A stretch of 38,064 bases of DNA from a virus (taxonomy: Duplodnaviria > Heunggongvirae > Uroviricota > Caudoviricetes). The position numbers and the translations under genes were made by a program. Positions 1-36,792 of the stretch are shown here, piece by piece. Position 1 is the first letter of the stretch. The number at the start of each line of letters is the position of its first letter. Where the stretch lies: IMG/VR virus record IMGVR_UViG_2526164598_000023, one strand, 5' to 3'. The notes under the pieces are model-generated. The model was not told the DNA's origin and did not search any database. It saw only the letters and a list, made by a program, of their open reading frames with translations.

Positions 1-573
1 TTACATTTCAGGTTGCGTTATGACAGTCCCAACAGGGTGGTAGCGGTAGATCGTTGACAGTCCAATATCATAGATAATTGCCAGCCGCTTTCTGTCATAC
101 CCTTTCTGGAGCAATCTTGCGATCTGCTCATGCTGCTCCTTCGTCAGTTTCGGGCGACGTCCTCCAACTCTCCCTTGTGCTCGCGCAGCAGCCAGTCCTG
201 CCAGCGTGCGCTCAACTATCAGTTCACGCTCCATTTCTGCCAGTGCACCCATCATATGAAAAAAGAACCTTCCCATCGGAGTGCTGGTATCGATTGAATC
301 CGTCAGACTGCGAAAATTGACACCTTTTGCGCGTAGCTCTTCTGTGAGAGCAATGAGGTGTTTCATTCTTCTACCCAACCGATCCAGCTTCCAGACCACC
401 AATGTATCCCCTCTTTTAAGGCACTTTAAAGCGCGTTTCAGGCCTGGTCGTTCCGACTTGGTTCCGCTCATTTTGTCCTCAAAAATCTGTTCACATCCTG
501 CGCACATTAATGCATTGCGTTGCAAATCTGTGTTTTGGTCATTTGTTGACACACGTATGTAGCCAATCAGCAT
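1..573 (-). CDS. gin: Serine DNA invertase, Gin/Pin/Hin family (complete, 190 aa)
   Basis: From ATG at 571-573 (minus) the translation begins MLIGYIRVSTNDQNTDLQRNAL, the serine-recombinase catalytic N-terminus, and continues through GDTLVVWKLDRLGR and a C-terminal HTH. AGGGAG-type RBS just upstream; stop at 1-3. The longer track ORF 1..768 is an unsupported upstream extension. Confidence 0.93.
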   Translation of the reverse strand: MLIGYIRVSTNDQNTDLQRNALMCAGCEQIFEDKMSGTKSERPGLKRALKCLKRGDTLVVWKLDRLGRRMKHLIALTEELRAKGVNFRSLTDSIDTSTPMGRFFFHMMGALAEMERELIVERTLAGLAAARAQGRVGGRRPKLTKEQHEQIARLLQKGYDRKRLAIIYDIGLSTIYRYHPVGTVITQPEM

Positions 574-627
574 TAAAAATACTCCCTTTTGAGTGGTTAA
601 AGTACTGAGATAATGTGGGGAGGATTT

Positions 628-653
628 GAGAGATAAACGTTGGTTTGGGGGAA
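628..653. other. hix/gix-like 26-bp recombination site 1, inverted relative to sites 2 and 3
   Basis: Minus-strand reading is TTCCCCCAAACC-AA-CGTTTATCTCTC. Left half and core match the remembered hixL TTCTTGAAAACC-AA-GGTTTTTGATAA. It sits exactly at the boundary where homology between the fibre cassettes begins. Confidence 0.55.
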
Positions 654-771
654 GGCTCTGCACTGCCCGTTGGTGTGCCTGTTCCATGGCCCTCAGCCAC
701 ACCACCAACGGGCTGGCTGAAATGTAACGGTGCAGCATTTTCTTCTGAAATGTACCCCAATCTGGCAAAGG
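642..771 (+). repeat. About 130-bp block, near-identical inverted copy of 2070..2199
   Basis: Reverse complement of 642-771 matches 2070-2199 with a single mismatch by eye. The third copy (2584..2713) has about 8 mismatches. Confidence 0.8.
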
Positions 772-1120
772 CCTACCCCACCAATAAATTACCGGATTTA
801 CGCGGTGAATTTATCCGTGGCTGGGATGATGGGCGAGGAATTGATGCGGCACGCGCTTTATTGAGCATTCAAAACGGGATGTTGGAAAAACACCGCCATA
901 TTGTTGTAGCTAACGATGGATATGACACAAAAGATGAATGGGAGTTGGCTACGATTTTCAAAAAACATATACACAAGGCAGGGGGCTTGATGCCACAAAT
1001 ACAGGAGGGAGTTTGATTCCATCACCAACGCTTCATTCACGAGGAAGTATTGGTAACACAGGTGGTAGTGAAACCCGCCCCCGCAATATTGCATTTAACT
1101 ATATCGTGAGGGCGGCTTAG
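645..1120 (+). pseudogene. Silent tail-fibre C-terminal cassette V3, frame-disrupted
   Basis: Begins at the conserved block with no start codon of its own (in-frame TGA at 627-629). The conserved N-terminal part is in one frame (645..1016) and the conserved C-terminal end ETRPRNIAFNYIVRAA is in another (938..1120). An A6 run (960-965) and a G5 run (981-985) lie in the overlap. Confidence 0.55.
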
Positions 1121-1126
1121 TTATAT

Positions 1127-1738
1127 TCAACTGGCTGCTGCCAGTGGTATTTCCGGCAAGTTGATATCTGGTACCATGTTTATATCCATTGCGTTCAGCG
1201 CGTCTATATAATCCAGCACGGCATTAAGCCGGGTGGTTTCTGCCTGCGTCAACTTCCGCCCGGCCTGCAACTTCAACTGAATCAGACTTATGGAAGCCAT
1301 TGCCGCATCAGCCAGTGACTGGCGCTTGGTTTCTGCCGCTTCTACTGCGGCACGATGTTGTGCCTCAGTATCTGTCACCCATTTTTCACCATCCCATTTA
1401 TCGTATGGTGTTAACGGGGCGATAGTGGTTGTAGTTTTCGGGTAGTCACCCAGCGCCGTGATTTCTTCGGTGTTTCCCGTGTCAGTGCTATAGACGGTTT
1501 CACCACGATGGTCTGGCGCATACTCCCATGAACTTAAATTCTCCGAACGGCGGATAGCATAGCCCGCTTTATGTGCGCCCGGGGCATCTAAACAGGAATT
1601 TGCCGGAATACCGACACCCACAGCAAGATATTCAGTTGATTCGGAAATATATTCCCGTGTCTCACCATCATAGTTATAAACGACGATGTTTCCTGCCTGT
1701 ACGGCAATAAGGTCATCATTTAATATCGCGTTATTCAT
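1127..1738 (-). CDS. Tail fibre assembly protein (Tfa, Mu U / P2 G-like), 203 aa
   Basis: C-terminal region SLADAAMASISLIQLKLQAGRKLTQAETTRLNAVLDYIDALNAMD is the typical tail-fibre chaperone domain. Its ATG overlaps the V2 cassette stop as ATGA (1735-1738). Confidence 0.85.
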   Translation of the reverse strand: MNNAILNDDLIAVQAGNIVVYNYDGETREYISESTEYLAVGVGIPANSCLDAPGAHKAGYAIRRSENLSSWEYAPDHRGETVYSTDTGNTEEITALGDYPKTTTTIAPLTPYDKWDGEKWVTDTEAQHRAAVEAAETKRQSLADAAMASISLIQLKLQAGRKLTQAETTRLNAVLDYIDALNAMDINMVPDINLPEIPLAAAS

Positions 1739-2196
1739 AATGCGGTTCTCACAATATAATTGAAGGCAATATTGCGTGGGCGGTTTTCATTCCCATCTGA
1801 GGATTCCGTTCTGTATTGACTGGTAAATCTACCGTTAATTGCACCTTGCCGGACGGCGTTATCTGTCGACAACAGACTATCCCCTCTTTTGTCATTTGGC
1901 ACCAGTACCGTGTTATCCCACGCATCCCATGACCGAATATTATGATAATGACTTCCTGTTAACCACCCCTGCATGCTTAAGATGCCCCTTCCGGCATCCA
2001 CCCCGCGCCCATCATCCCAGCCACGGATAAACTCACCGCGTAAATCAGGTAATTTTAACGTTGGGTAAACCTTTGCCAGATTTGGGTACATTTCAGAAGA
2101 AAATGCTGCACCGTTACATTTCAGCCAGCCCGTTGGTGGTGTGGCTGAGGGCCATGGAACAGGCACACCAACGGGCAGTGCAGAGCCTTCCCCCAA
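1735..2196 (-). CDS. Silent tail-fibre C-terminal cassette V2 (no own ATG; first codon TTG inside hix-like site 2)
   Basis: Starts with the conserved block and ends NENRPRNIAFNYIVRTAL. Immediately follows the stop of the expressed fibre and is followed by tfa. Confidence 0.7.
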   Translation of the reverse strand: MGEGSALPVGVPVPWPSATPPTGWLKCNGAAFSSEMYPNLAKVYPTLKLPDLRGEFIRGWDDGRGVDAGRGILSMQGWLTGSHYHNIRSWDAWDNTVLVPNDKRGDSLLSTDNAVRQGAINGRFTSQYRTESSDGNENRPRNIAFNYIVRTAL

Positions 2197-2199
2197 ACC
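2070..2199 (-). repeat. About 130-bp block, near-identical inverted copy of 642..771
   Basis: See 642..771. Confidence 0.8.
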
Positions 2200-2213
2200 A
2201 ACGTTTTCATGCG
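2188..2213. other. hix/gix-like recombination site 2
   Basis: Plus strand TTCCCCCAAACC-AA-CGTTTTCATGCG. Contains the TGA stop of the expressed fibre (2207-2209) and the first codons of cassette V2. Confidence 0.55.
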
Positions 2214-3367
2214 GCTCTTACGATGTAATTAAATGCAACGTTGCGAGGGCGAGTTTCTGTACCTACATTTCCACTAATTTCACCAAACCGTCTTACATTA
2301 CGAGAGCTAATGGCTCGTAGTGAGGAAGGCACCTTTAAACCGGGTTCGTCTGTTTTAACTATTCCCCCGTCCCCGTATGTAGCCAGTATTCCAGGGTTTA
2401 CTCCTTCCCGTGTGCTTCCCGTGGCAAGTCCATCCCCGGTCCATAATTCCATATAGTGTGCATGATCCAAAATTGTGTGTGGCTGCCAATTAAGCAAAGC
2501 GCGGCCAGCATCCACCCCGCGCCCATCATCCCAGCCGCGAATAAATTCTCCCCGTAAATCCGGTAATTTATTGGCGGGGTAGGCCTTTGCCAGATTGGGG
2601 TACATTTCAGAAGAAAATGCTGCACCGTTACATTTCAGCCACCCCGTTGGCGGCGTGGCTGAAGGCCATGGAACGGGCACACCAACGGGCAGCGCCGAGC
2701 CTTCCCCTAAACCAAGGTAATTGAGGACTTCTTTTATACTGCCCATAGCGATAATAGCGCGACCAATAGCTGTAAGGGTTGTCAGTGCTGCGCGGTCTGC
2801 TCCGGTAAAATAAGGCAACCGATCTGCTGCAGTGGCAAGTCCTGCCAGAGCAGTGAGCGTGGCATCTGCCGGTTGTTTTCCGTTTGCCAGATCGTATGCA
2901 GCCTTGACCGCTTTCGGTGTGGCGGCCAGTATTTCAGACGTGCTGTTGATGTCACTGCTCAATTGTACGGTGCCTTTTGCCGTCAGCGAGGCAGCAGGCA
3001 CTCCCGTTATCTGACTCCACGGGTGAGTATGGCTGACGGGGGCCTTGCCGGCAGCCAGGTCATATGCAGCCTTGACGGCCTTTGGTGTGGCGGCCAGCGT
3101 TTCAGAGGTGCTGTTGGTGGCACTGCTCAGTTGGGTGAACCCCTTAGCTGTCAGTGTCGCGTCCGGGTGGTTACGGGAACGTACGTGTTCAGCCAGTGAC
3201 TGTGCGGCTTCCTCCGTTTTTTTCTTCAGCCATTTCGTCCTGTTTGCCAGTTGCCGGGGGGCTCGATTTGATATCCCGTCTGCACCACCCAGAACCGGAT
3301 CTGATGTCTCCAGTTGATAGATATTTTCTTCCCACTTTTCTGTTTCATTCAGGTTTCCCATAATCAA
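2207..3367 (-). CDS. Tail fibre protein (Mu S / P2 H-like), constant N-terminal part fused to cassette V1, 386 aa
   Basis: Contains P2 H-like repeats (HPDATLTAKGFTQLSSATNSTSETLAATPKAVKAAYDLA) and QPADATLTALAGLATAADRLPYFTG, then the conserved cassette block, and ends ETRPRNVAFNYIVRAA. Confidence 0.9.
   Translation of the reverse strand: MIMGNLNETEKWEENIYQLETSDPVLGGADGISNRAPRQLANRTKWLKKKTEEAAQSLAEHVRSRNHPDATLTAKGFTQLSSATNSTSETLAATPKAVKAAYDLAAGKAPVSHTHPWSQITGVPAASLTAKGTVQLSSDINSTSEILAATPKAVKAAYDLANGKQPADATLTALAGLATAADRLPYFTGADRAALTTLTAIGRAIIAMGSIKEVLNYLGLGEGSALPVGVPVPWPSATPPTGWLKCNGAAFSSEMYPNLAKAYPANKLPDLRGEFIRGWDDGRGVDAGRALLNWQPHTILDHAHYMELWTGDGLATGSTREGVNPGILATYGDGGIVKTDEPGLKVPSSLRAISSRNVRRFGEISGNVGTETRPRNVAFNYIVRAA
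2702..2727. other. hix/gix-like recombination site 3, at the constant/variable junction of the expressed fibre
   Basis: Plus strand TTCCCCTAAACC-AA-GGTAATTGAGGA. The central AAACCAAGGT is identical to the remembered hixL centre. Encodes ...LNYLGLGE. Confidence 0.6.
2885..3163 (-). repeat. Two tandem repeat units of about 108 nt inside the tail fibre gene, period 171 nt (57 codons)
   Basis: 2891-2950 and 3058-3120 are about 85% identical. They encode the two LTAKG..QLSS..NSTSE.LAATPKAVKAAYDLA units. Confidence 0.7.
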
Positions 3368-25066: not shown

Positions 25067-25837
25067 ATGAAAATGCAGACATTACCCATCGTTCCATGGA
25101 TTGGTGGCAAACGCCGCCTTGCAAAACACATCCTGCCGCTGTTTCCGGCGCATGAATGTTATGTGGAGCCGTTTTGTGGGGCAGCAGCGCTCTATTTTCT
25201 TAAGGTACCCGGCAAGATCGAAGTCATTAATGATATCAACGGTGAACTGGTGAACCTGTATCGGGTGGTAAAACATCATCTGGAAGAATTTGTACGCCAG
25301 TTCAAATGGGCGCTGGTCAGCCGGCAGATCTACAAATGGCTGCAGATCACCCCGGAAGAAACACTGACGGATATCCAGCGTGCAGCACGGTTCTACTACC
25401 TTCAGAAGCAGGCGTTTGGAGGCAAGGTGGCGGAGCACAGCTTTGGTACCTCCACCATATCCCCGCCACGCTTCAACCTGCTGCGTATTGAAGAAGAACT
25501 GTCAGCGGCACACCTGCGGCTTTCCAGAACGGTCATAGAACACATGGACTGGCAACAGTGCATAGAACGATATGATCGCCCGCATACGTTGTTCTACTGT
25601 GACCCTCCATACTGGGGAACGGAAGGTTATGGTGTGGAGTTCGGACTAGAAAATTATGATCATATGGCAGATTTAGCACGCAGGATCAAAGGGAAGATGA
25701 TTATATCGGTGAACGATATCCCGGAAATGCGGCAGGCATTCAACGGTCTAAATATTCAGTCGGTTGATATCAGCTACAACCTCAAGATCACTGGCAAATC
25801 CAGTCGCAAGAAGGAACTCATTATCCTCAACTTTTGA
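25067..25837 (+). CDS. N6-adenine DNA methyltransferase, Dam-like, orphan (no adjacent restriction endonuclease), 256 aa
   Basis: AdoMet motif EPFCGAAALYF near the N-terminus and catalytic DPPY (YCDPPYWGTEGYG). Confidence 0.85.
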   Translation: MKMQTLPIVPWIGGKRRLAKHILPLFPAHECYVEPFCGAAALYFLKVPGKIEVINDINGELVNLYRVVKHHLEEFVRQFKWALVSRQIYKWLQITPEETLTDIQRAARFYYLQKQAFGGKVAEHSFGTSTISPPRFNLLRIEEELSAAHLRLSRTVIEHMDWQQCIERYDRPHTLFYCDPPYWGTEGYGVEFGLENYDHMADLARRIKGKMIISVNDIPEMRQAFNGLNIQSVDISYNLKITGKSSRKKELIILNF

Positions 25838-27032
25838 CCGAATAGTAAGACTTCATGCAGTGAATCAAGTACTGCATGAAGTCAAGGGCTGGTTTTGTGT
25901 ACCAAAAATAAACAGTGATAGCGGTAATAATTCCCATAACTAGAACACCACGTATAATCCAGAACGTACGTTTCTGCGTGTCTAGTCGCGCAGAAATACT
26001 GCTAAATACACCAGCCACGTCATCTTTAATGAAGGAATATTCCTTATTAATCTGTTTTTCTTTGTATTCAATTTCTTCGCCTAAGGCCTTTATAGATTGC
26101 ATCTGGTTCGAAAGTGCCAGCCAGATTAACGTTGCAGCAAAAATGCATCCCAGAAGAATTATTGTGTTTGTTATCCCTTGGCCTGACCATTTCGTAGCCA
26201 CTTTGAATTGGGTAGCTACGATAACAGAGGCAACAGGAATGCCAAGTATATGGTTCTGGATATCTGAAAACGCTTTGTGGATTTTACCCATTTCTTCGAC
26301 TTTTGCAGCACGCAGTTGATCCATTACTTTGTCATAAGAGAATCCAGAAGAGTAGATACGATACCCTTTCAGAAACTTTTCATGCAGACGCTGAATATTG
26401 TCCAGTAAATAAGCGAATACTAGAGGTGAATCAATTCCATCACTAACTGCTTGGATACTTTCAATCAGAATATCTAGCTTCTGATCCTTATGGGTATCAT
26501 CATTGAAACAAGCTATAAGGTTATCAAGATACTCTCTTTGCAAATTTTGTACATTTTCTGCAGCGAAGTGCGGTAATAGCTTGATAACTTCTTTTTTCAG
26601 AAAAACTAACTGACAAGTTGAGTTATCAAAGTAGGCCGCGGCCTCTTTTAGCAGGTTAACGAACTCGAGAATCTTCCGGTAGTTGCTGATGAAAACGGGG
26701 ATATCTTCATCATCATTACGAAACTTTGTTTCTAGGATGAAGTAATTAGCTGGCTCAAGGCACTGATGCTTTGGAGCATTTAGCAATTTTTCATGGGTGG
26801 AAAACACAAGTCCCAGTCCACTCCGTGGTGACGTCACACGTAGGATGATCGTGTTACCTGGAGCGATAGTGCCTGTATCAATAGAAAGACCATATTCACG
26901 AGGATCATCAAGCAAAGTATCAACCAGATCACAATCGGACTGATCTAAGAGCAACAGCGAACCGACACGAAACCCCTCTTGGAATTCCATACGACGATAC
27001 AGATCTGTCAGCATCTCAAATGAAATCGCCAC
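25827..27032 (-). CDS. Membrane protein with soluble N-terminal domain and two C-terminal TM helices, 401 aa
   Basis: GTG start at 27030-27032 two nt after the upstream stop, with a GAGG RBS (alternative ATG at 27014). TM helices ITNTIILLGCIFAATLIWLALS and FWIIRGVLVMGIITAITVYFWY; AT-rich codon usage. Confidence 0.65.
   Translation of the reverse strand: MAISFEMLTDLYRRMEFQEGFRVGSLLLLDQSDCDLVDTLLDDPREYGLSIDTGTIAPGNTIILRVTSPRSGLGLVFSTHEKLLNAPKHQCLEPANYFILETKFRNDDEDIPVFISNYRKILEFVNLLKEAAAYFDNSTCQLVFLKKEVIKLLPHFAAENVQNLQREYLDNLIACFNDDTHKDQKLDILIESIQAVSDGIDSPLVFAYLLDNIQRLHEKFLKGYRIYSSGFSYDKVMDQLRAAKVEEMGKIHKAFSDIQNHILGIPVASVIVATQFKVATKWSGQGITNTIILLGCIFAATLIWLALSNQMQSIKALGEEIEYKEKQINKEYSFIKDDVAGVFSSISARLDTQKRTFWIIRGVLVMGIITAITVYFWYTKPALDFMQYLIHCMKSYYSVKS
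25849..25883. repeat. Perfect 13-bp inverted repeat with 9-nt spacer
   Basis: GACTTCATGCAGT-gaatcaagt-ACTGCATGAAGTC, 12 nt past the methyltransferase stop and inside the last codons of the convergent 401-aa gene, at the boundary where composition becomes AT-rich. Confidence 0.7.
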
Positions 27033-27034
27033 GA

Positions 27035-28042
27035 TTAAACCTCAGTCATCCACATTTCCCTAAATTCTTCAGGTACATTACGTAGGGTGATAATATTTGT
27101 TTCCGGATCATAATCAATATAGCCTTCAGTTTTCCCTTCCCGGTCAAACTTAAGTTCCCAATATTTAGACTTGCCTTTAAAAGATACCAGAGCCCGAATG
27201 ACTCGACCATCAGGAACGAAGCCATCCGATAACTCCAACTCTTCAGCAGCAAGTTTACCAGATAACTCCTCGGGAGCCTGGGGCCAAATGGCATTAACAA
27301 GGGTTTCAAGACTAAGTGGTTCACCAGCCTTACTTAGTGCATGTAAGTGTTCAAACGCACTCTTAAGAAATGCATCTTTTTCAGCGCCGTCAAGTCCTTT
27401 CTCTGCCGCAAATGCTTTTAAAACGTCACGTAACTTTTCAGACTCTCGTTTGGCGATTAAGACATCATTACAGCCGAGGAACTGTTTAAAATAGTTTGAA
27501 ACATTACCTTGCCCCTTAAGAAAACTGATATAGCGCTCTGCGCCACTTTCCCACGCGGTTAAGTCAATGCGCCCAGCCATACGCAGCTTAGCAATATCAA
27601 GATAGGTACTATCTTGGATGTTAAAATCATCTGTGACAGTGGATCCAATGGTAGCGCTTACAATAGCTATCAACAGGTGTTCATTGTGTCCTATCACGAT
27701 ATTTGCAAAAAGAACATAACCACCAGTAGCCATGTTTTCTCGCTGAGAACGTTCCGTCAGGTGATGCATCATTCGGCAGGAACTTTGGTAGAAATCATCA
27801 ACACCTTCGAGAAAGTCCCCAGCCATTCGTTCCATAGGATAGTTATCCGTATCGCCTTCAAAATAGCCATAACCTTTACCTGTGCGTCCTGCATATTTTG
27901 CACAAATATCGTTTATAAGGCGCTGGGAGGCTTCAGTAACTAGACCTTCTTCAGGACTCAATCTCTCAGAAGCGTCTCCATTTTGTTGTTTGTCTAAAAT
28001 GTGAACTACAACGTGTTTAACTTCAATGGTCTGCTCAGACAT
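27035..28042 (-). CDS. NdpA/YejK-like nucleoid-associated protein homologue, 335 aa
   Basis: Segments GGYVLFANI..HLLIAIVS, YLDIAKLRMAGRIDLTAWESGAERYISFLKGQ and the C-terminal YIDYDPETNIITLRNVP resemble E. coli YejK as I remember it; same length (335 aa). ATG 28040-28042 with AAGGTGGA RBS. Confidence 0.65.
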   Translation of the reverse strand: MSEQTIEVKHVVVHILDKQQNGDASERLSPEEGLVTEASQRLINDICAKYAGRTGKGYGYFEGDTDNYPMERMAGDFLEGVDDFYQSSCRMMHHLTERSQRENMATGGYVLFANIVIGHNEHLLIAIVSATIGSTVTDDFNIQDSTYLDIAKLRMAGRIDLTAWESGAERYISFLKGQGNVSNYFKQFLGCNDVLIAKRESEKLRDVLKAFAAEKGLDGAEKDAFLKSAFEHLHALSKAGEPLSLETLVNAIWPQAPEELSGKLAAEELELSDGFVPDGRVIRALVSFKGKSKYWELKFDREGKTEGYIDYDPETNIITLRNVPEEFREMWMTEV

Positions 28043-28112
28043 TAGCTATCCACCTTATTTTTTATTGCTTAATGGCAAATAATTTCTGCTATATGTTCTC
28101 GTTAGGAACACA

Positions 28113-28520
28113 TTAACCCACATTTTTTAACCGCTCAATCGTTGCGGATAATTCCTTCAGTTGTTTTTCCATCTCAATCACACGCTGTTTTTCTTCAGCG
28201 CCTCGCATGAGATCTCGCCGAACCTCAGGATCTAACTGGTTTAGAAGTTCAAGCATTTTAAGGTCTGACGGGCTGAATTGATGTTGTGTTGGTACAGCAA
28301 CAATTTCTTTAGATGGAATATGTTCTTTACCGGTAAGTAGCCAATCGATCGATACACCCAAATGGGTGCTTAGCGCAACAAGAGCCTCTGCGTTTGGTTC
28401 TCTCTCTCCACGCAAATAGTTTTGAAGTGAGCGATATGGAATTTTTGATAAGTTAGATAATGCCTTTATTGTCATGCCATTAGCATCCATCACTTCACGC
28501 AATCTCTCTTTTGTACTCAT
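28113..28520 (-). CDS. Phage repressor, HTH (XRE-like), 135 aa
   Basis: Start moved to ATG 28518-28520 (MSTKERLREVMDANGMTIKALSNLSKIPYRSLQNYLRGER), an HTH; divergent from the ner-like gene. Confidence 0.7.
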   Translation of the reverse strand: MSTKERLREVMDANGMTIKALSNLSKIPYRSLQNYLRGEREPNAEALVALSTHLGVSIDWLLTGKEHIPSKEIVAVPTQHQFSPSDLKMLELLNQLDPEVRRDLMRGAEEKQRVIEMEKQLKELSATIERLKNVG

Positions 28521-28539
28521 TTGAACATATCTCAATTTG

Positions 28540-28559
28540 ACACACTCATTTGGGTGTGT
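28540..28559. promoter_or_regulatory. Candidate operator dyad ACACAC-N8-GTGTGT in the repressor/ner divergent region
   Basis: 6-bp inverted arms separated by 8 nt, centred between the two divergent starts. Confidence 0.3.
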
Positions 28560-28608
28560 ACAATAGACCCAATAGAGTACATCATAACCTAACAGGAACA
28601 CGGTGCAT

Positions 28609-28833
28609 ATGAACAAACAACAAGTTCGGGCACGGCTGGTTGAACGAGGCAGTAGCTTGCGCCAGTTCGCGCTTAACGCGGGCTATGAACCACGAACAGT
28701 CACCCAGGCAGTCAGTCGCTGGGCTGGTAAAAGTGAACTACCTCGCGGTCGTTTGACTTATCGGATTTTGCGAGATCTATCGGTTGCAATAGGTAAAGAA
28801 GTTACCCCCGGTATCCTTAAGGAGGCGTCATGA
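28609..28833 (+). CDS. ner: Ner-like DNA-binding protein, 74 aa
   Basis: MNKQQVRARLVERGSSLRQFALNAGYEPRTVTQAVSRW... matches the Mu Ner family; ATG 28609 with AGGAA RBS (the track start at 28603 is GTG). Confidence 0.7.
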   Translation: MNKQQVRARLVERGSSLRQFALNAGYEPRTVTQAVSRWAGKSELPRGRLTYRILRDLSVAIGKEVTPGILKEAS

Positions 28834-29138
28834 ATAAACCAAATACATCAAGCTCAGGTACCCGTATTTTGCGCGTTCTTAAGGCCTTACGTGGCCACGC
28901 TTTGAACGGTGTTTCTAACGGGGAACTAGCGGTTGCACTGCACGAATCACCGGCAAACATCAACCGGGCACTTAACACGCTCATTGAAGAAGGGTTGGCT
29001 CTGAAACTAGAAAACGGGCGTTTCGCACCAGGCATCCAGTTGCTGCAGATCGCCATGGCCCACAGTAACGAGATGGCACGTGCACAGGATCGCATTAACG
29101 AAATCAACCAACGTGTTATTTCAGGTAGTCGTTTGTAA
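28830..29138 (+). CDS. Winged-helix DNA-binding protein, 102 aa
   Basis: ILRVLKALRGHALNGVSNGELAVALHESPANINRALNTLIEEGL resembles a MarR/IclR-type wHTH. Confidence 0.5.
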   Translation: MNKPNTSSSGTRILRVLKALRGHALNGVSNGELAVALHESPANINRALNTLIEEGLALKLENGRFAPGIQLLQIAMAHSNEMARAQDRINEINQRVISGSRL

Positions 29139-29148
29139 GGAGTAATCA

Positions 29149-30060
29149 ATGGGACGCACCAAATCACCGGTTAGCACTGAACTGAACGTCGAGGTACCGC
29201 TGTCGGATGATCTCAATGTCAGTCTAAACGCCATGACACAGCATCGCATGGAAATCATGCAACAGTTCGGCGATGGTCTGCCCTATGAGCGCGATCGTGT
29301 TGTCCATGAGGCACGCTTTTATATGGCACAGAGCGCTGAGGCCATGCTGGAGGCAGGTAAGCGGCTGATAATCCTTAAGGAAAATGAACCACACGGGGAG
29401 TTTATAAAGATTCTTGAAAGTGAGTTGGGGCTGGCATACCGGACATCTGTGAGAATGATGCAAGCATCGACAAAATACTTATCCCCGGCGCTGAAACCAA
29501 ATGTGCCAACGTTGGCACATTTGGGAAAAGCCAAACTTTTCGAATTAATGACAGAAGACGACGAAGAGCTTGCCGAACTGGCCGACGGCGGCACAGTTGC
29601 CGGCCTGACGCTTGACGACGTTGATCGCATGTCAGTACGTGAATTGCGTCAGGCCCTGCGCGAAGCGCGCGAAACCAACGCAGCACAACAGCGCGTACTC
29701 GCTGACAAAAATGAAAAAATAGACTCACTCTCCACCAGACTGGAGAAGAAATCCCGTATTCAGCCGCCTGAGCCTGATGAAGAGGTTAAGAAGCTGCGGG
29801 CGGAAGTGACAGCATTAGCGGTTGAGGCGGAATCTGCTATCGCCGTTCGACTGTCCAGCGCTTTTGAGACGCTGTGCGCATATTGTGCTGAAAACATGAT
29901 TGATACCCCCAGAGACTTCATGGCAGGCCTGGTCTGTCAACTGGAAAGCACAGCGCGTAGCCTGCGCTCCACATTTGACCTGCCGGATGAGCCAACAGGC
30001 AATGCCGCGCCTTCATGGCTGACTGAGCCGACGCCACAGATTAACGGGCTGGAGGCATAA
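29149..30060 (+). CDS. Hypothetical protein, 303 aa
   Basis: ORF between the wHTH gene and the transposase; no recognised catalytic motif. Confidence 0.5.
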   Translation: MGRTKSPVSTELNVEVPLSDDLNVSLNAMTQHRMEIMQQFGDGLPYERDRVVHEARFYMAQSAEAMLEAGKRLIILKENEPHGEFIKILESELGLAYRTSVRMMQASTKYLSPALKPNVPTLAHLGKAKLFELMTEDDEELAELADGGTVAGLTLDDVDRMSVRELRQALREARETNAAQQRVLADKNEKIDSLSTRLEKKSRIQPPEPDEEVKKLRAEVTALAVEAESAIAVRLSSAFETLCAYCAENMIDTPRDFMAGLVCQLESTARSLRSTFDLPDEPTGNAAPSWLTEPTPQINGLEA

Positions 30061-30063
30061 CCA

Positions 30064-31833
30064 ATGAATGCTGCCCTGACTGAACGACTGGTTTATGTCG
30101 CCCGCGCGGCACGTGACGCGGGGCATGGTAAACGCGGTGCAATATACGACGCTGCCTGTGCTGAACTTGGCATGTCCCGCGCCACTCTGCTGCGCAGGCT
30201 GAAGGAGGTCTCTGTGACTGATAAACGCAAAAAACGCGCTGATGCCGGACGCAGCGCCCTGACCCGCGACGAAGCCGCGCTGATATCTGCCACACTGCGT
30301 GAGGCCACCCGCAAGAACGGTAAGCGTCTCTATTCCATCGCGGATGCAGTGGAAACCCTGCGGGCTAACGGCTTTATCTCCGCAGGCAGAACAGATGAAA
30401 CCACCGGTGAGTTTTTCCCGTTGTCCGAAGATGCCATCAGTCGTGCCCTGCGTAACTATGGCCTGCACCCGGAACAACTGGATGCTCCTGCGCCGCATAC
30501 CGAAGTGGCCAGTCTGCATCCCAATCATGTCTGGCAGATTGATGCCTCGCTCTGCACGCTTTACTACCTGAGCAATGGACACAAAGGGCTGCAGGTGATG
30601 GACAGCGCGAAGTTCTACAAGAACAAACCCGCTAACCTTGCCCGTATCGCCAGTGACCGCGTGTGGAGTTACGAGATTACCGACCATGCCAGCGGCTGGA
30701 TTTACGTTGAGTATGTGACGGGTGCGGAATCCGGTGAGAACCTGTGTTCTGTGCTTATCAACGCCATGCAGGAGCGTGGCGGCGCAGACGTGCTGCACGG
30801 CGTGCCAAAAATACTCTATCTCGACCCCGGTTCGGCAAACACCGCGGGTATGACGAAAAACATGTGCCGCTCACTGGGCATTGACCTGATAGCGCACAAG
30901 CCGCATAACGCCCGCGCCACCGGACAGGTGGAAAAGGCGCGTGACATTATCGAACGCAAGCTGGAGCCGGGTCTGAAGTTCCGGCCGGTTCACAGTCTGG
31001 AAGAACTCAACGCGCTGGCCGCGAAATGGCGCAGCCACTTTAACGCCACGGCTGTTCACAGCCGCCACGGTAAAACCCGCACGGATATCTGGCTGAAGAT
31101 TACTGCTGAGCAGCTGAAAAAAGCGCCTTCCGTTGAGGTATGTCGTGAACTGGCTGTGGCGGCACCAGAACTCCGCAAAGTCACGCCAAAACTTCGTGTC
31201 TCGTTCCGGGGCACTGAATTTGACGTATCAACGGTACCGGGCGTACTGGTCGGTGAAAAACTGATGATTACCCGTAACCCGTGGCGCAGCGATGTGGCAC
31301 AGGTGGTTCTGACCGGTGAGGACGGCCACGAGACGTTCTTCCTGGTCGAAGAGGTCAGAAAGAACGAGTTTGGCTTTGCTGAAGGCGCGGCGGTATTTGG
31401 CGAAAGTTACAAAGCCCTGCCGGAAACCCCGGCGCAGATGGCGGCAAAAGAAACCGAAGCGCTGGTCACCGGTACAGACAACGCCGCAGATGCAGCTGCC
31501 GCACGCAAGGCGAAGGCGCTGCCGTTCGGCGGGCGGCTTGACCCGTATAAACATATTGATGACGCCACACTTCCGGCCTATATGCCGAAGCGAGGTCAGG
31601 CCTCTGACGTACGCGGACCGCGCACTGAACAGCGTCCCATGACTCATGTGGAGGCCGCGAAAGCCCTGCGCGGGAAGTTCAGCGCCAACGGCCTTACCTG
31701 GACGCCGGAACATTACCGCCAGTTAACGGCACAGTACCCGGACGGCGTACCGGAAGCCGCACTGGATGAAGTCATGGCCACGCTGACCACGCCGGCCCGC
31801 AGCAGTGTTATCAGCATTGTTAACGGCAACTGA
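30064..31833 (+). CDS. DDE transposase (Mu A-like), 589 aa
   Basis: Candidate DDE residues in HVWQIDAS, ILYLDPGSANTAG and ATGQVEKARD; N-terminal HTH-like region; followed by an AAA+ gene. Confidence 0.8.
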   Translation: MNAALTERLVYVARAARDAGHGKRGAIYDAACAELGMSRATLLRRLKEVSVTDKRKKRADAGRSALTRDEAALISATLREATRKNGKRLYSIADAVETLRANGFISAGRTDETTGEFFPLSEDAISRALRNYGLHPEQLDAPAPHTEVASLHPNHVWQIDASLCTLYYLSNGHKGLQVMDSAKFYKNKPANLARIASDRVWSYEITDHASGWIYVEYVTGAESGENLCSVLINAMQERGGADVLHGVPKILYLDPGSANTAGMTKNMCRSLGIDLIAHKPHNARATGQVEKARDIIERKLEPGLKFRPVHSLEELNALAAKWRSHFNATAVHSRHGKTRTDIWLKITAEQLKKAPSVEVCRELAVAAPELRKVTPKLRVSFRGTEFDVSTVPGVLVGEKLMITRNPWRSDVAQVVLTGEDGHETFFLVEEVRKNEFGFAEGAAVFGESYKALPETPAQMAAKETEALVTGTDNAADAAAARKAKALPFGGRLDPYKHIDDATLPAYMPKRGQASDVRGPRTEQRPMTHVEAAKALRGKFSANGLTWTPEHYRQLTAQYPDGVPEAALDEVMATLTTPARSSVISIVNGN

Positions 31834-31843
31834 GGAGGAAAAC

Positions 31844-33010
31844 ATGCTGGTACTGAAGCAGCAACTGAAAGAGGCCCGTATTTCACAGGCGGTGGTGGCG
31901 AGAGCTGTCGATGTTTCTGAGGCCACGCTGGCCCAGATTGTGAATCATAACGCGTGGCCCCGCACCAGCCCCGGAGAAGTGCGCCGGCGTCTTGCGTCCT
32001 GGCTGGAAAGTCAGGGGATTGATACAGCGAAGAGTTTTGATGCTGTACAGGGCGCGGCCACGCCCCGTACATCGGGTACCACAGATAAAACGAGCCTCAG
32101 TGAGGAAGAGAATATGTTACTCAAAAAACAGGTGTTATTTCCAGCAACCAAAAAAGCGTTTGGTCTTTTCCGTGACCCGTTCGCCGACGAAGCCATGCAG
32201 GGTTCTGATGATGTGTTCACCACCCCGGACATTCGCTACGTGCGTGAGGCGTTGTACCAGACAGCACGTCATGGTGGGTTTATGGCCGTCATCGGTGAGT
32301 CCGGTGCGGGTAAATCCACGCTGCGCCGTGACCTGACTGAACGTATCAACCGCGAGAATGCGCCAGTGATTGTTATCGAGCCATACATCATCGCTATGGA
32401 AGACAACGATGTGAAAGGGAAAACTCTGAAGGCAGCAGCGATTGCCGAAGCCATTATCAGTACCATCGCACCACTGGAAAGCATCAGACGCAGTCAGGAC
32501 GCCCGCTTTCGCCAGTTGCATCGCGTCCTGAAAGACAGCAGCCAGGCGGGGTTCAGCCACGTTCTGGTGATTGAGGAGGCCCACAGTCTGCCCATTCCGA
32601 CACTGAAACACCTCAAACGCTTTTTTGAGCTGGAGTCCGGTTTCAAAAAACTGCTGTCCATCGTGCTAATTGGTCAGCCGGAACTGGCGACAAAACTGTC
32701 TGAACGCAATATGGAAGTCCGTGAAGTCGTTCAGCGCTGTGAGGTGGTCGAACTTCTGCCTCTGGACAATAACCTTGAAGAATTTCTGACGTTCAAACTG
32801 CAACGGGCCGGTAAACAACTGACGGACATTATGGACGCCAGCGCAGTGGATGCCATACGTGCCCGCCTGAGCAATCCGGGAAGTCATCGTAAAAATATGG
32901 TCAGCCTGCTGTATCCGCTGGCCGTCAGTAACCTGGTAATAGCCGCCATGAATCTGGCTGCTGAAATCGGGGTTCCACAGGTCAACGCTGACGTTGTCAA
33001 AGGGGTTTAA
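31844..33010 (+). CDS. Transposition ATPase (MuB-like AAA+), 388 aa
   Basis: Walker A GESGAGKST and Walker B VLVIEEAH; start placed at ATG 31844 with GAGGAGGA RBS. Confidence 0.8.
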   Translation: MLVLKQQLKEARISQAVVARAVDVSEATLAQIVNHNAWPRTSPGEVRRRLASWLESQGIDTAKSFDAVQGAATPRTSGTTDKTSLSEEENMLLKKQVLFPATKKAFGLFRDPFADEAMQGSDDVFTTPDIRYVREALYQTARHGGFMAVIGESGAGKSTLRRDLTERINRENAPVIVIEPYIIAMEDNDVKGKTLKAAAIAEAIISTIAPLESIRRSQDARFRQLHRVLKDSSQAGFSHVLVIEEAHSLPIPTLKHLKRFFELESGFKKLLSIVLIGQPELATKLSERNMEVREVVQRCEVVELLPLDNNLEEFLTFKLQRAGKQLTDIMDASAVDAIRARLSNPGSHRKNMVSLLYPLAVSNLVIAAMNLAAEIGVPQVNADVVKGV

Positions 33011-33012
33011 TA

Positions 33013-33282
33013 ATGAAATCCACCACAGGTATCAACCAGCAAATCAGCAAAGTGCAGTCAGCCATTATGGCGCTTAAGGCGACGAACACGGATGTACAAA
33101 GCATCACCATCAGGGGGAACAAACCTGTCATCCGCGTTTCCCGGAGTGCGCATTGCATGCGCATGCTTGAGCAGGGAAAGGCCTGTTATCTGTATACCGG
33201 ACATGACCACAGGGGATATTTCCGTCAGGGCGTTTTCGAACTGCACGGCTGTCGCGTCGTGTGGCCGGAATCTTTGTGGTAA
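33013..33282 (+). CDS. Hypothetical protein, 89 aa (position equivalent to Mu kil)
   Basis: ORF immediately after the B-like gene. Confidence 0.4.
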   Translation: MKSTTGINQQISKVQSAIMALKATNTDVQSITIRGNKPVIRVSRSAHCMRMLEQGKACYLYTGHDHRGYFRQGVFELHGCRVVWPESLW

Positions 33283-33309
33283 TCAGCACAACCGGAGAAA
33301 TCATAAAAA

Positions 33310-33840
33310 ATGGCAAAAAGTACAAAAGGTGCAAAACGTATCAAGGCCGCAGCAGCACTCTGGGTGCCGGGGACACGTGAAGAGGTCATTGAGGGCATCA
33401 GACTGCTCGGTGACGCACACCGTGAACTGGTCAGGGCTGAAACAGAAATGAATGACGCCATTGGCGATATCACCGCACGTTATGCCCCGCTCACCGAGAG
33501 CCTGAAAAAACGCATGGCCGAACTGCAGTCCGGTATTCAGACATGGTGTGAGGCACACCGTGATGAACTGACCGGCAACGGGAAGGTGAAGTTCGCTAAC
33601 CTCACCACCGGCGAGGTGCAGTGGCGAAACCGTCCGCCATCAGTCAGTATCCGTGGGGCGGATAATGTTATTGAATTACTGAGACGTCTGGGGCTTGAGC
33701 GCTTTATCCGTGTAAAGGAGGAAATAAATAAAGACGCTATCCTGAATGAAAAGGACGCCGTGAAAAATATTCCCGGTATTACCATAAAAAGTGATATTGA
33801 GGATTTTTCAATAATTCCTTTTGAGCAGGATGTGCAGTAA
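33310..33840 (+). CDS. gam: Host-nuclease inhibitor Gam (Mu Gam-like), 176 aa
   Basis: Mu Gam-like length; the sequence MAKSTKGAKRIKAAAALWVPGTREEVIEGIRLLGDAHRELVR fits the family. Confidence 0.8.
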   Translation: MAKSTKGAKRIKAAAALWVPGTREEVIEGIRLLGDAHRELVRAETEMNDAIGDITARYAPLTESLKKRMAELQSGIQTWCEAHRDELTGNGKVKFANLTTGEVQWRNRPPSVSIRGADNVIELLRRLGLERFIRVKEEINKDAILNEKDAVKNIPGITIKSDIEDFSIIPFEQDVQ

Positions 33841-33937
33841 ACACACCACGTTAATTATTTAATAAAAACATTTTCTTTTTTATTCCGGCGTCAGCGCCGT
33901 GGGCTTCTGCACGCCGGAAACAGAGGAGAATTAAATT

Positions 33938-34132
33938 ATGATATTTAAATGTATTCAGTGCGAGAGGGATATAACAGCCCTGCGTTTTCACAGCGCCATC
34001 GCCGTGATGTCCGGTAAATACCACATCCCTGCGGTACGCGTCACCCTGGTCTGCCCGTACTGCAGCCAGCATTTTTCGGCAGACGTGCCCGTCATGGAAT
34101 TCTCCCGCCCTGACAGGGAGGACTCGCAATGA
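33938..34132 (+). CDS. Small zinc-ribbon protein, 64 aa
   Basis: Two Cys pairs: CIQC and CPYC. Confidence 0.45.
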   Translation: MIFKCIQCERDITALRFHSAIAVMSGKYHIPAVRVTLVCPYCSQHFSADVPVMEFSRPDREDSQ

Positions 34133-34401
34133 TTACCCCACAGGAAGCACGACAGCGCACCCGAACCCTTGTTGAACACTATGTCAACGAGTGTGAATGC
34201 CGCGACCTCACCGATGTGAAGCACGTCCTGACGGCGCTAATCAGCATGACCGCTCAGGCCATTGTGGCGACCAACGGAAAGGCGGCTGCCCTGCAGGTAC
34301 TGGTGAACACACTAACCCACACGGCAGCGCATGAGGTGCCGTACCGGATGGAAACCACTGCAGAAGGCGGTCTGCACATCACCGTCAGCCGGAATCACTG
34401 A
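34129..34401 (+). CDS. Hypothetical protein, 90 aa
   Basis: ORF with overlapping stop/start to its neighbours. Confidence 0.45.
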   Translation: MITPQEARQRTRTLVEHYVNECECRDLTDVKHVLTALISMTAQAIVATNGKAAALQVLVNTLTHTAAHEVPYRMETTAEGGLHITVSRNH

Positions 34402-34410
34402 GGGCGCAGC

Positions 34411-34716
34411 ATGACACGGTACACCATACTCACCCGCACCGCCCTCTACCGTCTGGCCCTGCAGCGTTTCGGGCCGGACGCACAGGCCCTGAAACTGACA
34501 GAAGAGGCCGCTGAACTGGCAGCCTGTGCTGCCCGCAACCTGAACGGACAGGGCAGTGAAAGTGACCTCGCGGCAGAGCTGGCAGACGTGGAAATCATGA
34601 CAGAGCAGTTGCGCCTTCAGGGGATGGACCGGCTGATTGACTTCCACAAACAGAAAAAACTGGAACGCCTTGCCGCACGGCTGGGCGTCATGTACACCGG
34701 AGATACTGAACAATGA
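34411..34716 (+). CDS. MazG-like nucleotide pyrophosphohydrolase domain protein, 101 aa
   Basis: EEAAELAACAAR...ELADVEIMTEQL resembles the EExxE...E..D metal-binding helices of small MazG-like proteins. Confidence 0.5.
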   Translation: MTRYTILTRTALYRLALQRFGPDAQALKLTEEAAELAACAARNLNGQGSESDLAAELADVEIMTEQLRLQGMDRLIDFHKQKKLERLAARLGVMYTGDTEQ

Positions 34717-36631: not shown

Positions 36632-36659
36632 TATCTGCAATCAGGCTGGAGCGAGTTCT

Positions 36660-36792
<133 letters not shown>

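What the first reader, a model, noticed from the sequence alone, without database searches (positions are those of the whole stretch)
628..2727. Three-site tail-fibre shufflon beside the invertase, not a simple Mu G segment
Three hix/gix-like 26-bp sites (628-653 inverted; 2188-2213 and 2702-2727 direct) each sit at the start of a fibre C-terminal cassette. Only V1 is currently fused to the constant part. V2 and V3 have no start codon of their own (V2's first codon is a TTG inside site 2) and are silent until recombined. There is a single tfa gene, whereas Mu and P1 carry one per orientation. Working through the site orientations, two successive inversions could fuse V2 to the constant part with tfa directly downstream.
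Basis: partly seen in the sequence, partly recalled or inferred. Interest (0 to 1): 0.72.

Follow-up and report, generated by a model that had tools for sequence, protein, structure and literature searches.

The report
Three-site invertible tail-fibre tip switch
A Mu-like prophage of E. coli carries a serine-invertase switch with three recombination sites that swaps three alternative tail-fibre tips onto one fibre gene; it is a small version of the p15B "Min" multiple-inversion system known since 1990, so it is real and active in nature but not a new kind of system.

Summary
Three 26-bp sites (628-653, 2188-2213, 2702-2727) each border a promoterless, start-less 3' tail-fibre cassette next to an intact invertase that is 76% identical to Mu Gin. 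Only V1 is fused to the constant part, and there is one tfa.

The sites are p15B Min (mix) sites. Their conserved half (TTCCCC[C/T]AAACC) and AA core are identical to published mix sites, at 22-24 of 26 positions overall.

When the window is inverted twice in silico, cutting inside the core dinucleotides, it matches an E. coli DLI.5a prophage over 4,001 nt with one mismatch and one 1-nt gap. All four reachable isomers occur in public assemblies that carry the identical invertase. Some pairs sit at the same chromosomal insertion and differ only by an inverted segment (99.9% identical).

Arrays of 2, 3, 6 and 10 such cassettes, always with one tfa, occur in Mu-like, P2-like and P1-like elements.

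- The sites sit at the edge of ~220-bp collar-domain repeats.
- V3 carries a -1 frameshift in this copy.
- tfa flips with every inversion.
- "Shufflon" is a misnomer, because that term belongs to the Rci tyrosine-recombinase system.

Verdict: new member of a known kind, of modest interest.

The parts
1..573 (-). Serine DNA invertase gene (190 aa, Din family: Gin/Cin/Pin/Min type)
   Evidence: Pfam Resolvase (E=8e-51) plus HTH_7. It is 76% identical to Mu Gin, 73% to P1 Cin, and 84-86% to the invertases of the E2348/69 P2-like prophage and a P1-like plasmid. The exact protein is listed in 27,240 blocks of the public collection.
484..555 (-). Putative recombinational (Fis) enhancer inside the 5' end of the invertase gene (gene nt 19-90)
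   Evidence: This is the same position as the enhancer annotated in the P1 record at cin nt 19-90. It is 54/72 identical to that stretch, and Mu gin is 55/72. Two G-N13-C 15-mers at gene nt 22-36 and 71-85 are shared with Mu gin. Function is inferred, not shown.
628..653 (+). Site A: invertase-proximal crossover site, inverted relative to B and C; core TT at 640-641
   Evidence: It matches published mix sites at 22/26 (mixMI''L', mixN''O') and pixR at 20/26.
642..1120 (+). Cassette V3 (gp37-tip-like fibre C-terminus), unfused; -1 frameshift in the A6 run at 960-965
   Evidence: Two overlapping ORFs, 645-1016 and 938-1120. There is a 1-nt gap relative to L001, L003 and L004, with the rest identical. 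Sc-V3 would stop at 342 aa, but gives 377 aa if the A is restored. The V3 type has dN/dS of 0.04.
1127..1738 (-). Single tail-fibre assembly gene tfa (203 aa); its ATG overlaps the V2 stop (ATGA); it lies inside the invertible DNA
   Evidence: Pfam Caudo_TAP, E=9e-31. It shares 84% nucleotide identity with the HK97 and SfIV tfa genes. There is no BLASTP similarity to Mu U/U'.
1735..2200 (-). Cassette V2, unfused here, immediately upstream of tfa
   Evidence: Collar domain. An in-silico Sc-V2 fusion is in frame and gives 372 aa. V2 is fused to Sc in L001-L003.
2188..2213 (-). Site B: crossover site between V1 and V2; core at 2200-2201; its outer half also encodes the end of V1 (..RAA stop)
   Evidence: It matches mixN''O' at 24/26 and mixMr''N' at 23/26.
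2207..2714 (-). Cassette V1, currently fused to the constant part
   Evidence: It is part of ORF 2207-3367. It matches the T4 gp37 tip (PDB 2XGF) at E=6.5e-18, including the collar, an HxH motif and the C-terminal NIAFNYIVR.
2702..2727 (-). Site C: crossover site at the constant/variable junction of the fibre gene; core at 2714-2715
   Evidence: It matches mixQ''R' at 22/26 and shares its GGTAAT outer half.
2716..3367 (-). Constant 5' part of the tail-fibre gene (Sc), with two 168-nt Phage_fiber_2 shaft repeats (2877-2986 and 3045-3154)
   Evidence: Relatives carry 4-9 repeat copies.
635..871 (.). Collar-coding repeat (copies at 635-871, 1970-2206 and 2496-2718) that starts each cassette
   Evidence: the repeat finder families I1, I2 and D1: 88-91% identity over 214-237 nt.

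Best explanation
This is a Min-type (p15B-like) multiple DNA-inversion system in the tail-fibre operon of a transposable, Mu-like prophage.

One Din-family serine invertase (1-573) recombines three 26-bp sites that share an asymmetric AA/TT core. Site C lies inside the fibre gene, at the junction of the constant and variable parts. Sites B and A lie in front of two further cassettes that have no promoter and no start codon.

Because A is inverted relative to B and C, the inversions A x B and A x C, followed by inversions at the hybrid sites, cycle the locus through four states:
- S0: Sc-V1 | V2-tfa | V3' (this window).
- S1: Sc-V1 | V3 | tfa' | V2'.
- S2: Sc-V3 | tfa' | V2' | V1'.
- S3: Sc-V2-tfa | V3' | V1'.

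Each inversion is conservative and in frame. It replaces the last ~155-170 residues of the fibre with a different small tip resembling that of T4 gp37. Each tip has a conserved collar, an HxH motif, a variable receptor-binding middle and a conserved ...RPRNIAFNYIVRAA end.

Shown here: the sites, the frames, the four isomers in nature, and exchange points within 7 bp of the core.

Inferred:
- The adjacent invertase is the catalyst.
- It needs Fis and the enhancer in its own 5' end, which would favour inversion over deletion between the direct sites B and C.
- The tips differ in host receptor, so a lysogen population releases phage of several host ranges.
For: Sites and their statistics.

Identity with published mix sites: the conserved half is 12/12 and the core is AA (Table 3 of PMC3241671; scored).

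Invertase: Resolvase plus HTH_7 domains, 76% identical to Gin.

Precise products:
- The in-silico S3 form of the window equals L002 over 4,001 nt, with 1 mismatch and 1 gap. The native window breaks into four pieces against L002.
- Cassette-specific SNPs 6 nt from the core travel with the cassette, while the outer half-sites stay in place. This is seen in window vs L002 and in L009 vs L014.

Isomers at the same chromosomal insertion:
- L009 vs L014: a 2,047-nt segment is inverted at 99.95% identity, and the host flank is 99.8% identical.
- L010 vs L016: a 1,608-nt segment is inverted at 99.94% identity.

All four states were seen:
- S0: the window.
- S1: L009, L018.
- S2: L004.
- S3: L001-3, L012-15, L017.

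All fusions are in frame.

Cassettes are under purifying selection, with dN/dS of 0.04-0.16, and resemble the T4 gp37 tip.

The same architecture occurs in E2348/69 (3 cassettes), ETEC6335 (6) and plasmid pSX12-6 (10 sites identical to mix sites), each with one tfa.

Prophage tail-fibre genes are a recognised, long-read-confirmed class of programmed-inversion targets (PMC9881135).
Against: - No read-level data from this strain were available, so ongoing switching in this particular lysogen is not shown.
- V3 is frameshifted here, so this copy can at best make two working tips, unless the A-run is a sequencing error.
- The enhancer is only a positional and sequence analogy.
- Host-range differences between the tips are inferred from Mu, P1 and T4, not tested.
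- tfa is antisense to the fibre operon in S1 and S2. No conserved promoter explains how it would be expressed in those states.
Confidence: 0.9

Rival explanations
1. The rearrangements arise by RecA-dependent homologous recombination between the ~220-bp inverted collar repeats. On this view the adjacent invertase and the 26-bp sites are incidental.
For: The repeats are long (214-237 bp) and 88-91% identical. Homologous exchange among collars does happen: in L001 the V1 cassette carries a V2-type collar that is 99.5% identical.
Against: In independent isomer pairs, the exchange points fall within the 7 bp TTGGTTT at the outer edge of the homology, not anywhere along the 220 bp. The in-silico product cut at the core matches L002 with one mismatch in 4 kb. 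The sites are mix sites, and an intact Din invertase sits beside them.
Confidence: 0.04
2. The system is of the Min type, but in this particular copy it is a frozen relic. The arrangement is fixed and the unfused cassettes are decaying.
For: V3 carries a frameshift. V1 is separated from tfa by the unfused V2. No population data exist for this strain.
Against: The invertase is full length and identical in sequence to the one in relatives found in all four states. All three sites are intact and share the same core. V3 differs from intact copies only by one base in a homopolymer. This 4-kb region differs from that of DLI.5a (L002) by one SNP, one indel and two inversions, so the inversions are very recent.
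Confidence: 0.08
3. The main benefit goes to the host rather than the phage. Inversion would create fibre-tip proteins that block adsorption of other phages, as reported for PinQ and the e14 P segment.
For: PinQ-driven inversion of the e14 P segment makes a chimeric StfE2 that blocks T2 adsorption (abstract of PMC12529663). The cassettes resemble the T4 gp37 tip.
Against: Here the switch sits in an apparently complete prophage, in the normal late-operon position. The portal, sheath, tape measure, baseplate, transposase and ATPase genes all appear as long ORFs with the expected Pfam domains. Relatives are inserted at many different loci, as expected for an active transposable phage. Nothing suggests that the fibre is expressed in the lysogen.
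Confidence: 0.05
4. The different arrangements are assembly artefacts caused by the repeated collar sequences.
For: Repeats of ~220 bp can mislead short-read assemblers. Some of the records are chromosome-level WGS assemblies.
Against: The same states recur in many independent complete genomes. The isomers are exact inversions bounded by the site cores, with the half-site SNPs swapped reciprocally at both ends. A misassembly would not produce that pattern.
Confidence: 0.02

Closest known systems
Min multiple-inversion system of plasmid p15B (Sandmeier, Iida, Arber 1990-1992; mix sites as tabulated in PMC3241671)
   Same: - One Din-family serine invertase beside a cluster of crossover sites in both orientations.
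- Each site lies at the 5' border of a promoterless 3' tail-fibre segment, and there is one constant 5' part.
- The conserved half-site TTCCCC[C/T]AAACC and the AA core are identical, and the three classes of outer half correspond (Sc junction GGTAAT.., cassette end CGTTTT.ATGC., invertase side).
- The cassette types V1, V2 and V3 themselves recur in a P1-like Min array, which has a single tfa.
   Different: - It has three sites rather than six, giving 4 states (the p15B figure of 240 isomers is from memory).
- The carrier is a transposable Mu-like prophage, not a P1-like plasmid prophage.
- The invertase is 84% identical to the invertase of the Min-type array on P1-like plasmid pSX12-6, not identical.
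- The p15B sequence itself was not available here. pSX12-6, whose sites equal the published mix sites, served as a stand-in.
G segment / Gin of phage Mu, and C segment / Cin of P1
   Same: - It occupies the same place in the genome: baseplate J, I, fibre, tfa, invertase.
- The invertase is 76% identical to Gin and 73% to Cin.
- The invertase gene sits outside the invertible DNA, with its 5' end next to a site.
- The enhancer-equivalent stretch is in the 5' end of the gene.
- The fibre has a constant part plus exchangeable C-terminus.
   Different: - Mu and P1 have two sites, where this locus has three; the Mu gix core is GA (P1 cix, like this locus, has AA).
- They have two Sv-U pairs, where this locus has three cassettes and one tfa.
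- The cassettes and Tfa show no BLASTP similarity to Sv, Sv', U or U'.
P segment / Pin of the e14 element (and PinQ acting on it)
   Same: It has a Din invertase, pix sites with an AA core (pixR matches site A at 20/26), and stf/tfa-type contents.
   Different: e14 has two sites and is a defective element. As I recall, it carries two tfa genes.
R64 shufflon (Rci)
   Same: Both are multi-site inversion clusters that exchange the C-terminal segments of one adhesin-type gene (pilV in R64). The logic is the same: one constant 5' part and many 3' ends.
   Different: Rci is a tyrosine recombinase that acts on sfx repeats. This locus has a serine invertase and 26-bp dix-type sites. It is therefore not a shufflon in the strict sense.
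T4 gp37 distal fibre tip with its chaperones gp38 and gp57A (PDB 2XGF)
   Same: Each cassette matches the gp37 tip: the collar, an HxH motif, and the C-terminal ..NIAFNYIVR (E=6.5e-18). From memory, lambda-type Tfa can replace gp38 in gp37 assembly.
   Different: The cassettes are much shorter (154-168 aa) and are exchanged by inversion. T4 has no such switch.

Membership tests
Din-family serine DNA invertase systems (Hin/Gin/Cin/Pin/Min) | Small serine recombinase with an N-terminal resolvase catalytic domain (nucleophile Ser near residue 9-10) and a C-terminal HTH | tested here: met
   Resolvase (E=8e-51) and HTH_7 (E=1e-12). The motif YIRVSTNDQ has Ser9. The protein is 76% identical to Gin over 181 aa.
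Din-family serine DNA invertase systems (Hin/Gin/Cin/Pin/Min) | 26-bp sites made of two imperfect 12-bp inverted half-sites around a 2-bp core that fit the dix consensus, with the same asymmetric core in all partner sites | tested here: met
   All three sites read TTCCCC[C/T]AAACC AA [C/G]GT.... The published consensus and sites are in Table 3 of PMC3241671.
Din-family serine DNA invertase systems (Hin/Gin/Cin/Pin/Min) | Conservative exchange at the core dinucleotide that gives inversion | tested here: met
   This was tested by comparative genomics only. The in-silico product cut at the cores equals L002 (4,001 nt, 1 mismatch, 1 gap). Half-site SNPs are swapped reciprocally.
Din-family serine DNA invertase systems (Hin/Gin/Cin/Pin/Min) | Fis-bound recombinational enhancer in cis | tested here: inconclusive
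   The stretch at gene nt 19-90 is 54/72 identical to the enhancer annotated in P1 cin, and Mu gin is 55/72. Two G-N13-C 15-mers are shared with gin. The coding constraint alone could explain this similarity, and function cannot be tested here.
Min-type multiple inversion system (p15B) | More than two crossover sites, in both orientations, under one invertase, forming overlapping invertible segments | tested here: met
   There are three sites, with A inverted relative to B and C. All four isomers were observed.
Min-type multiple inversion system (p15B) | Each site joins one constant 5' fibre-gene part to alternative promoterless 3' segments, in frame | tested here: met
   The in-silico fusions are 386, 372 and 377 aa, the last after the V3 frameshift is repaired.
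Min-type multiple inversion system (p15B) | mix-type site sequences | tested here: met
   The sites match particular mix sites at 22-24 of 26, and the conserved half matches at 12/12.
Mu G segment | Two gix sites with a GA core flanking one segment that holds two Sv-U pairs homologous to Mu S/U and S'/U' | tested here: not met
   This locus has three sites with an AA core, one tfa and three cassettes. BLASTP finds no similarity between the cassettes or Tfa and Mu Sv, Sv', U or U'.
Shufflon (R64 type) | Rci tyrosine recombinase acting on sfx repeats within pilV | tested here: not met
   The recombinase is a serine resolvase/invertase, and the target is a phage tail-fibre gene.

The most novel reading that the evidence does not exclude
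The single tfa lies inside the invertible DNA, so it flips with every inversion. Two of the four states (S1, S2) therefore place tfa antisense to the fibre operon, and the V3-type tip can only ever be fused to the fibre in such a state. Yet V3-type cassettes are under strong purifying selection (dN/dS 0.04), and V3-fused, tfa-antisense states are found in nature.

The switch may therefore control two things at once: which tip is made, and whether the Tfa chaperone or co-adhesin is made. That would give four phenotypes from three cassettes. It would also imply either that some gp37-like tips fold without a cis-encoded Tfa, or that there is an unrecognised way of expressing tfa regardless of orientation.
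Probability: 0.2. Interest if true: 0.5.

Novelty: new member of a known kind. Interest (0 to 1): 0.3.

Why it matters
The locus shows that Min-type multi-cassette tail-fibre switches are not peculiar to p15B. The same site type, cassette pool and single-tfa layout occur as arrays of 2, 3, 6 and 10 cassettes in Mu-like, P2-like and P1-like elements of E. coli. The exact invertase of this window is present in tens of thousands of public assemblies.

For annotation, the many short "phage tail protein" CDSs called beside invertases are alternative 3' ends of one fibre gene, not separate genes. The arrangement seen in an assembly is one snapshot out of four.

For phage biology and engineering, the locus offers a compact natural library of interchangeable gp37-like receptor-binding tips, each with a defined in-frame junction.

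The one open question it raises is how these tips are chaperoned when tfa is inverted.

Tried and rejected
- **Internal promoter for tfa.** A sigma70-like match inside the V2 collar (2079-2052, - strand) could make tfa expression independent of orientation. It is not conserved in the other tfa-linked cassettes (L006, L007, the 171-aa type). The number of promoter-like hits equals the chance expectation (3 found, 3.9 expected). Rejected.
- **Promoter on the invertase side reading into the segment.** A TGAGATAAT element at 606-614 (+) was noted, but the spacer is not conserved in L006 or L007. It could equally be the -10 of the invertase promoter on the other strand. Left as speculation.
- **Terminator scan.** Nothing above chance.
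- **Homology of the cassettes and Tfa to Mu S/U.** None beyond the shaft repeat.
- **PDB sequence search for the Tfa.** No significant hit.
- **Original p15B, P1 and Tfa papers** (PMC53420, PMC206102, PMC523184, PMC7811200). Not held. What I say about the number of p15B isomers, about lambda Tfa replacing T4 gp38, and about the two tfa genes of e14 is therefore from memory.
- **Literature search for a described Mu-like prophage with a multi-site switch.** It found only SfMu and general surveys.


Full report
**1. What is in the sequence**

On the minus strand, the left end of the window reads as the end of a phage tail operon: late control D-like, baseplate V, W, J, tail protein I, then a 386-aa tail-fibre ORF at 3367->2207.

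The fibre has two Phage_fiber_2 shaft repeats and a C-terminal Collar domain. Downstream on the same strand lie a 153-aa Collar ORF with no ATG (V2, 2196->1735) and a 203-aa Caudo_TAP gene (tfa, 1738->1127). The tfa ATG overlaps the V2 stop codon.

A third Collar cassette (V3, 642-1120) lies on the plus strand, convergent with tfa. It is split into two overlapping ORFs. The window starts with a complete 190-aa Resolvase plus HTH_7 gene (573->1).

- A: GAGAGATAAACG TT GGTTTGGGGGAA (628-653, + strand).
- B: CGCATGAAAACG TT GGTTTGGGGGAA (2213->2188).
- C: TCCTCAATTACC TT GGTTTAGGGGAA (2727->2702).

A 19-nt pattern of the shared part occurs three times in the 38-kb window, against 0.01 expected by chance. 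The sites are not isolated 26-mers. They form the outer ends of 214-237-bp repeats that are 88-91% identical and encode the Collar domain of each cassette.

**2. What the sites and the enzyme are**

Table 3 of PMC3241671 lists the crossover sites of Hin, Gin, Cin, Pin, Min, PinB and the D. nodosus system.

Written with the conserved half first, the three sites are:
- A: TTCCCCCAAACC AA CGTTTATCTCTC.
- B: TTCCCCCAAACC AA CGTTTTCATGCG.
- C: TTCCCCTAAACC AA GGTAATTGAGGA.

The 12-bp conserved half and the AA core are identical to those of the p15B mix sites. Whole-site matches are 22-24 of 26 to particular mix sites, against 13-18 to gix and hixL.

The three classes of outer half correspond as well:
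- Site C resembles mixQ''R' (GGTAAT...), the junction with the constant part.
- Site B resembles mixMr''N' and mixN''O' (CGTTTT.ATG..). This half also encodes the last codons and the stop of the preceding cassette.
- Site A resembles mixMI''L' and pixR, the invertase side.

The invertase is 76% identical to Mu Gin, 73% to P1 Cin, and 84-86% to the invertases of the E2348/69 P2-like prophage and of a P1-like plasmid.

The P1 record annotates the Cin enhancer at cin nt 19-90. The same stretch of this gene (window 555->484) is 54/72 identical to it, about the same as Mu gin at 55/72. It shares two G-N13-C 15-mers with gin. This fits a Fis enhancer but does not prove one, because the stretch is also coding.

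**3. Does it recombine?**

No reads of this strain were available, so I used public assemblies as the population.

Prophages 97-99% identical to this one sit in different host genes in E. coli E30, DLI.5a, HSP60 and cS51a. That is expected for a transposable phage. The window itself encodes an rve transposase, an AAA ATPase and a Mu-type portal.

E30, DLI.5a and HSP60 are arranged Sc-V2-tfa | V3' | Vx' | invertase, where the outermost cassette Vx is V1 in E30 and DLI.5a and a different 154-aa type in HSP60. cS51a is arranged Sc-V3 | tfa' | V2' | Vx'.

Ten further loci that encode the identical invertase add the fourth state and some two-site versions. That protein is listed in 27,240 blocks of the collection.

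Among the three-site loci the states are:
- S0: the window.
- S1: L009, L018.
- S2: L004.
- S3: L001-3, L012-15, L017.

Two pairs share the same chromosomal insertion and differ by one inverted segment:
- L009 vs L014: 2,047 nt inverted at 99.95% identity, host flank 99.8% identical.
- L010 vs L016: 1,608 nt inverted at 99.94% identity.

The exchange point is mapped tightly. The outer half-sites stay with their position (Sc side, cassette end, invertase side). The inner half-sites, together with cassette-specific SNPs that begin 6 nt from the core, move with the cassettes. This holds reciprocally at both ends.

The decisive test was to invert the window twice in silico, cutting between the two core bases. 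The result aligns with DLI.5a in one piece over 4,001 nt, with one mismatch and one gap. The native window breaks into four pieces against the same locus.

Homologous recombination along 220 bp of repeat would not place every breakpoint within the same 7 bp. Homologous exchange among the collars does occur, however: in E30 the V1 cassette carries a V2-type collar.

**4. How it most likely works**

The adjacent invertase is inferred to bind as dimers to two sites of opposite orientation. It would synapse them at the Fis-bound enhancer in its own 5' end and exchange strands at the AA/TT core. This is the invertasome model for Hin and Gin (PMC3798978).

The four states form a cycle, S0-S1-S3-S2-S0. 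Every fusion is in frame: Sc-V1 is 386 aa, Sc-V2 is 372 aa, and Sc-V3 is 377 aa once the frameshift is repaired.

Each cassette resembles a miniature T4 gp37 tip. It matches PDB 2XGF at E=6.5e-18, with the collar, an HxH motif and the C-terminal ..RPRNIAFNYIVRAA. The roughly 75 residues between the conserved ends are unrelated among the cassette types. That is where receptor specificity would reside; this step is inferred.

All three cassette types are under purifying selection when compared with their copies in a P1-like plasmid. dN/dS is 0.04 for V3, 0.10 for V1 and 0.16 for V2. As types, therefore, they are expressed and functional.

In this window V3 has an A6 run at 960-965 where relatives have A7. 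As sequenced, Sc-V3 would be truncated at 342 aa. This is either a recent lesion in a silent cassette or a homopolymer sequencing error.

Sites B and C are direct repeats, so V1 could also be lost by deletion. One two-site relative (L011) equals a three-site one (L009) minus a 439-nt cassette, at the same insertion site. This could reflect cassette loss or cassette gain.

**5. The single tfa**

This is a regular feature of the family rather than an oddity of this locus:
- E2348/69 has 3 cassettes and one tfa.
- ETEC6335 has 6 cassettes and one tfa.
- pSX12-6 has 10 sites identical to published mix sites and one tfa.

What remains unexplained is orientation. tfa has no site between it and V2 or V3, so it flips with every inversion. 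It is antisense to the fibre operon in S1 and S2, and V3 can only be expressed in such a state.

Such states exist in nature (L004, L009, L010, L018, L019), and V3-type cassettes are well conserved.

Tfa co-varies with the cassette upstream of it. The 203-aa Tfa goes with V2, and a 58%-identical 204-aa Tfa goes with a 171-aa cassette type. This hints at specificity for that cassette. Mu Tfa is reported to stay on the virion and to contribute to host recognition (PMC9608196, citing North et al. 2019).

I found no conserved promoter that would make tfa expression independent of orientation.

**6. Comparison and novelty**

Functionally and by every sequence criterion I could test, this is a Min-type multiple-inversion system. 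The archetype is p15B (Sandmeier et al. 1990, cited).

It is not a Mu G segment. It is not a shufflon in the strict sense either, because the recombinase is a serine enzyme, not the tyrosine recombinase Rci.

Systematic surveys already list "tail fiber protein", "phage tail protein", "phage tail protein I" and "tail fiber assembly protein" among the annotations most enriched at programmed inversions. Those surveys include long-read confirmation in prophages (PMC9881135).

What is particular here is the carrier, a transposable Mu-like prophage, and the minimal three-site form. A specialist would not be surprised. The tfa-orientation question is the only part that could lead somewhere new.

**7. 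Verdict**

- Novelty: new member of a known kind.
- Interest: 0.3.

Noticed in passing
window 960-965 (within V3, 642-1120 +): The A-run is A6 here and A7 in L001, L003 and L004. This single-base difference is the only one in the cassette, and it frameshifts V3. It is either a recent lesion in a silent cassette or a homopolymer sequencing error.
   Followed up: yes
window 2877-2986 and 3045-3154 (-): The fibre shaft holds two copies of a 168-nt (56-aa) Phage_fiber_2 repeat. Related prophages have 4-9 copies, giving fibres of 537-779 aa against 386 aa here. Fibre length therefore varies by repeat copy number.
   Followed up: partly
window 25800-36700; host gene 36820-38064: The prophage is transposable: it has an rve transposase (30064-31833 +), an AAA ATPase (31805-33010 +) and a Mu-type portal. 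However, the early genes point away from the late genes, unlike Mu. A 37-kD nucleoid-associated protein (NA37) gene lies inside it at 27035-28042 (-). A host Trp/Tyr permease gene follows at 36820-38064.
   Followed up: partly
L001 2137-2359 versus window 1991-2206: In E. coli E30 the V1 cassette carries a collar 99.5% identical to the V2 collar, where DLI.5a has 88.9%. This indicates gene conversion among the collar repeats, in addition to site-specific exchange.
   Followed up: partly
L011 versus L009 (same aroA-serC insertion site): A two-site locus equals a three-site locus minus one 439-nt cassette bounded by direct sites. This is either cassette loss by deletion between direct sites or cassette gain.
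   Followed up: partly
window 1127-1738 (tfa) in states S1 and S2; L004, L009, L010, L018, L019: tfa flips with every inversion and is antisense to the fibre operon in half of the states. The V3-type tip can only be expressed in such a state, yet it is under strong purifying selection.
   Followed up: partly
window 574-627 (spacer between the invertase ATG and site A): On the + strand there is an extended -10-like TGAGATAAT (606-614) followed by GGGGAGGA (617-624), pointing into the invertible DNA. On the other strand the same stretch could be the invertase promoter overlapping site A. The spacer is not conserved in L006 or L007.
   Followed up: partly
L007 (plasmid pSX12-6), L006 (E2348/69), L019 (ETEC6335): The same cassette types (V1, V2, V3) are shared between Mu-like, P2-like and P1-like elements, pointing to a common cassette pool. 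RefSeq annotates each cassette as a separate "phage tail protein" CDS.
   Followed up: partly
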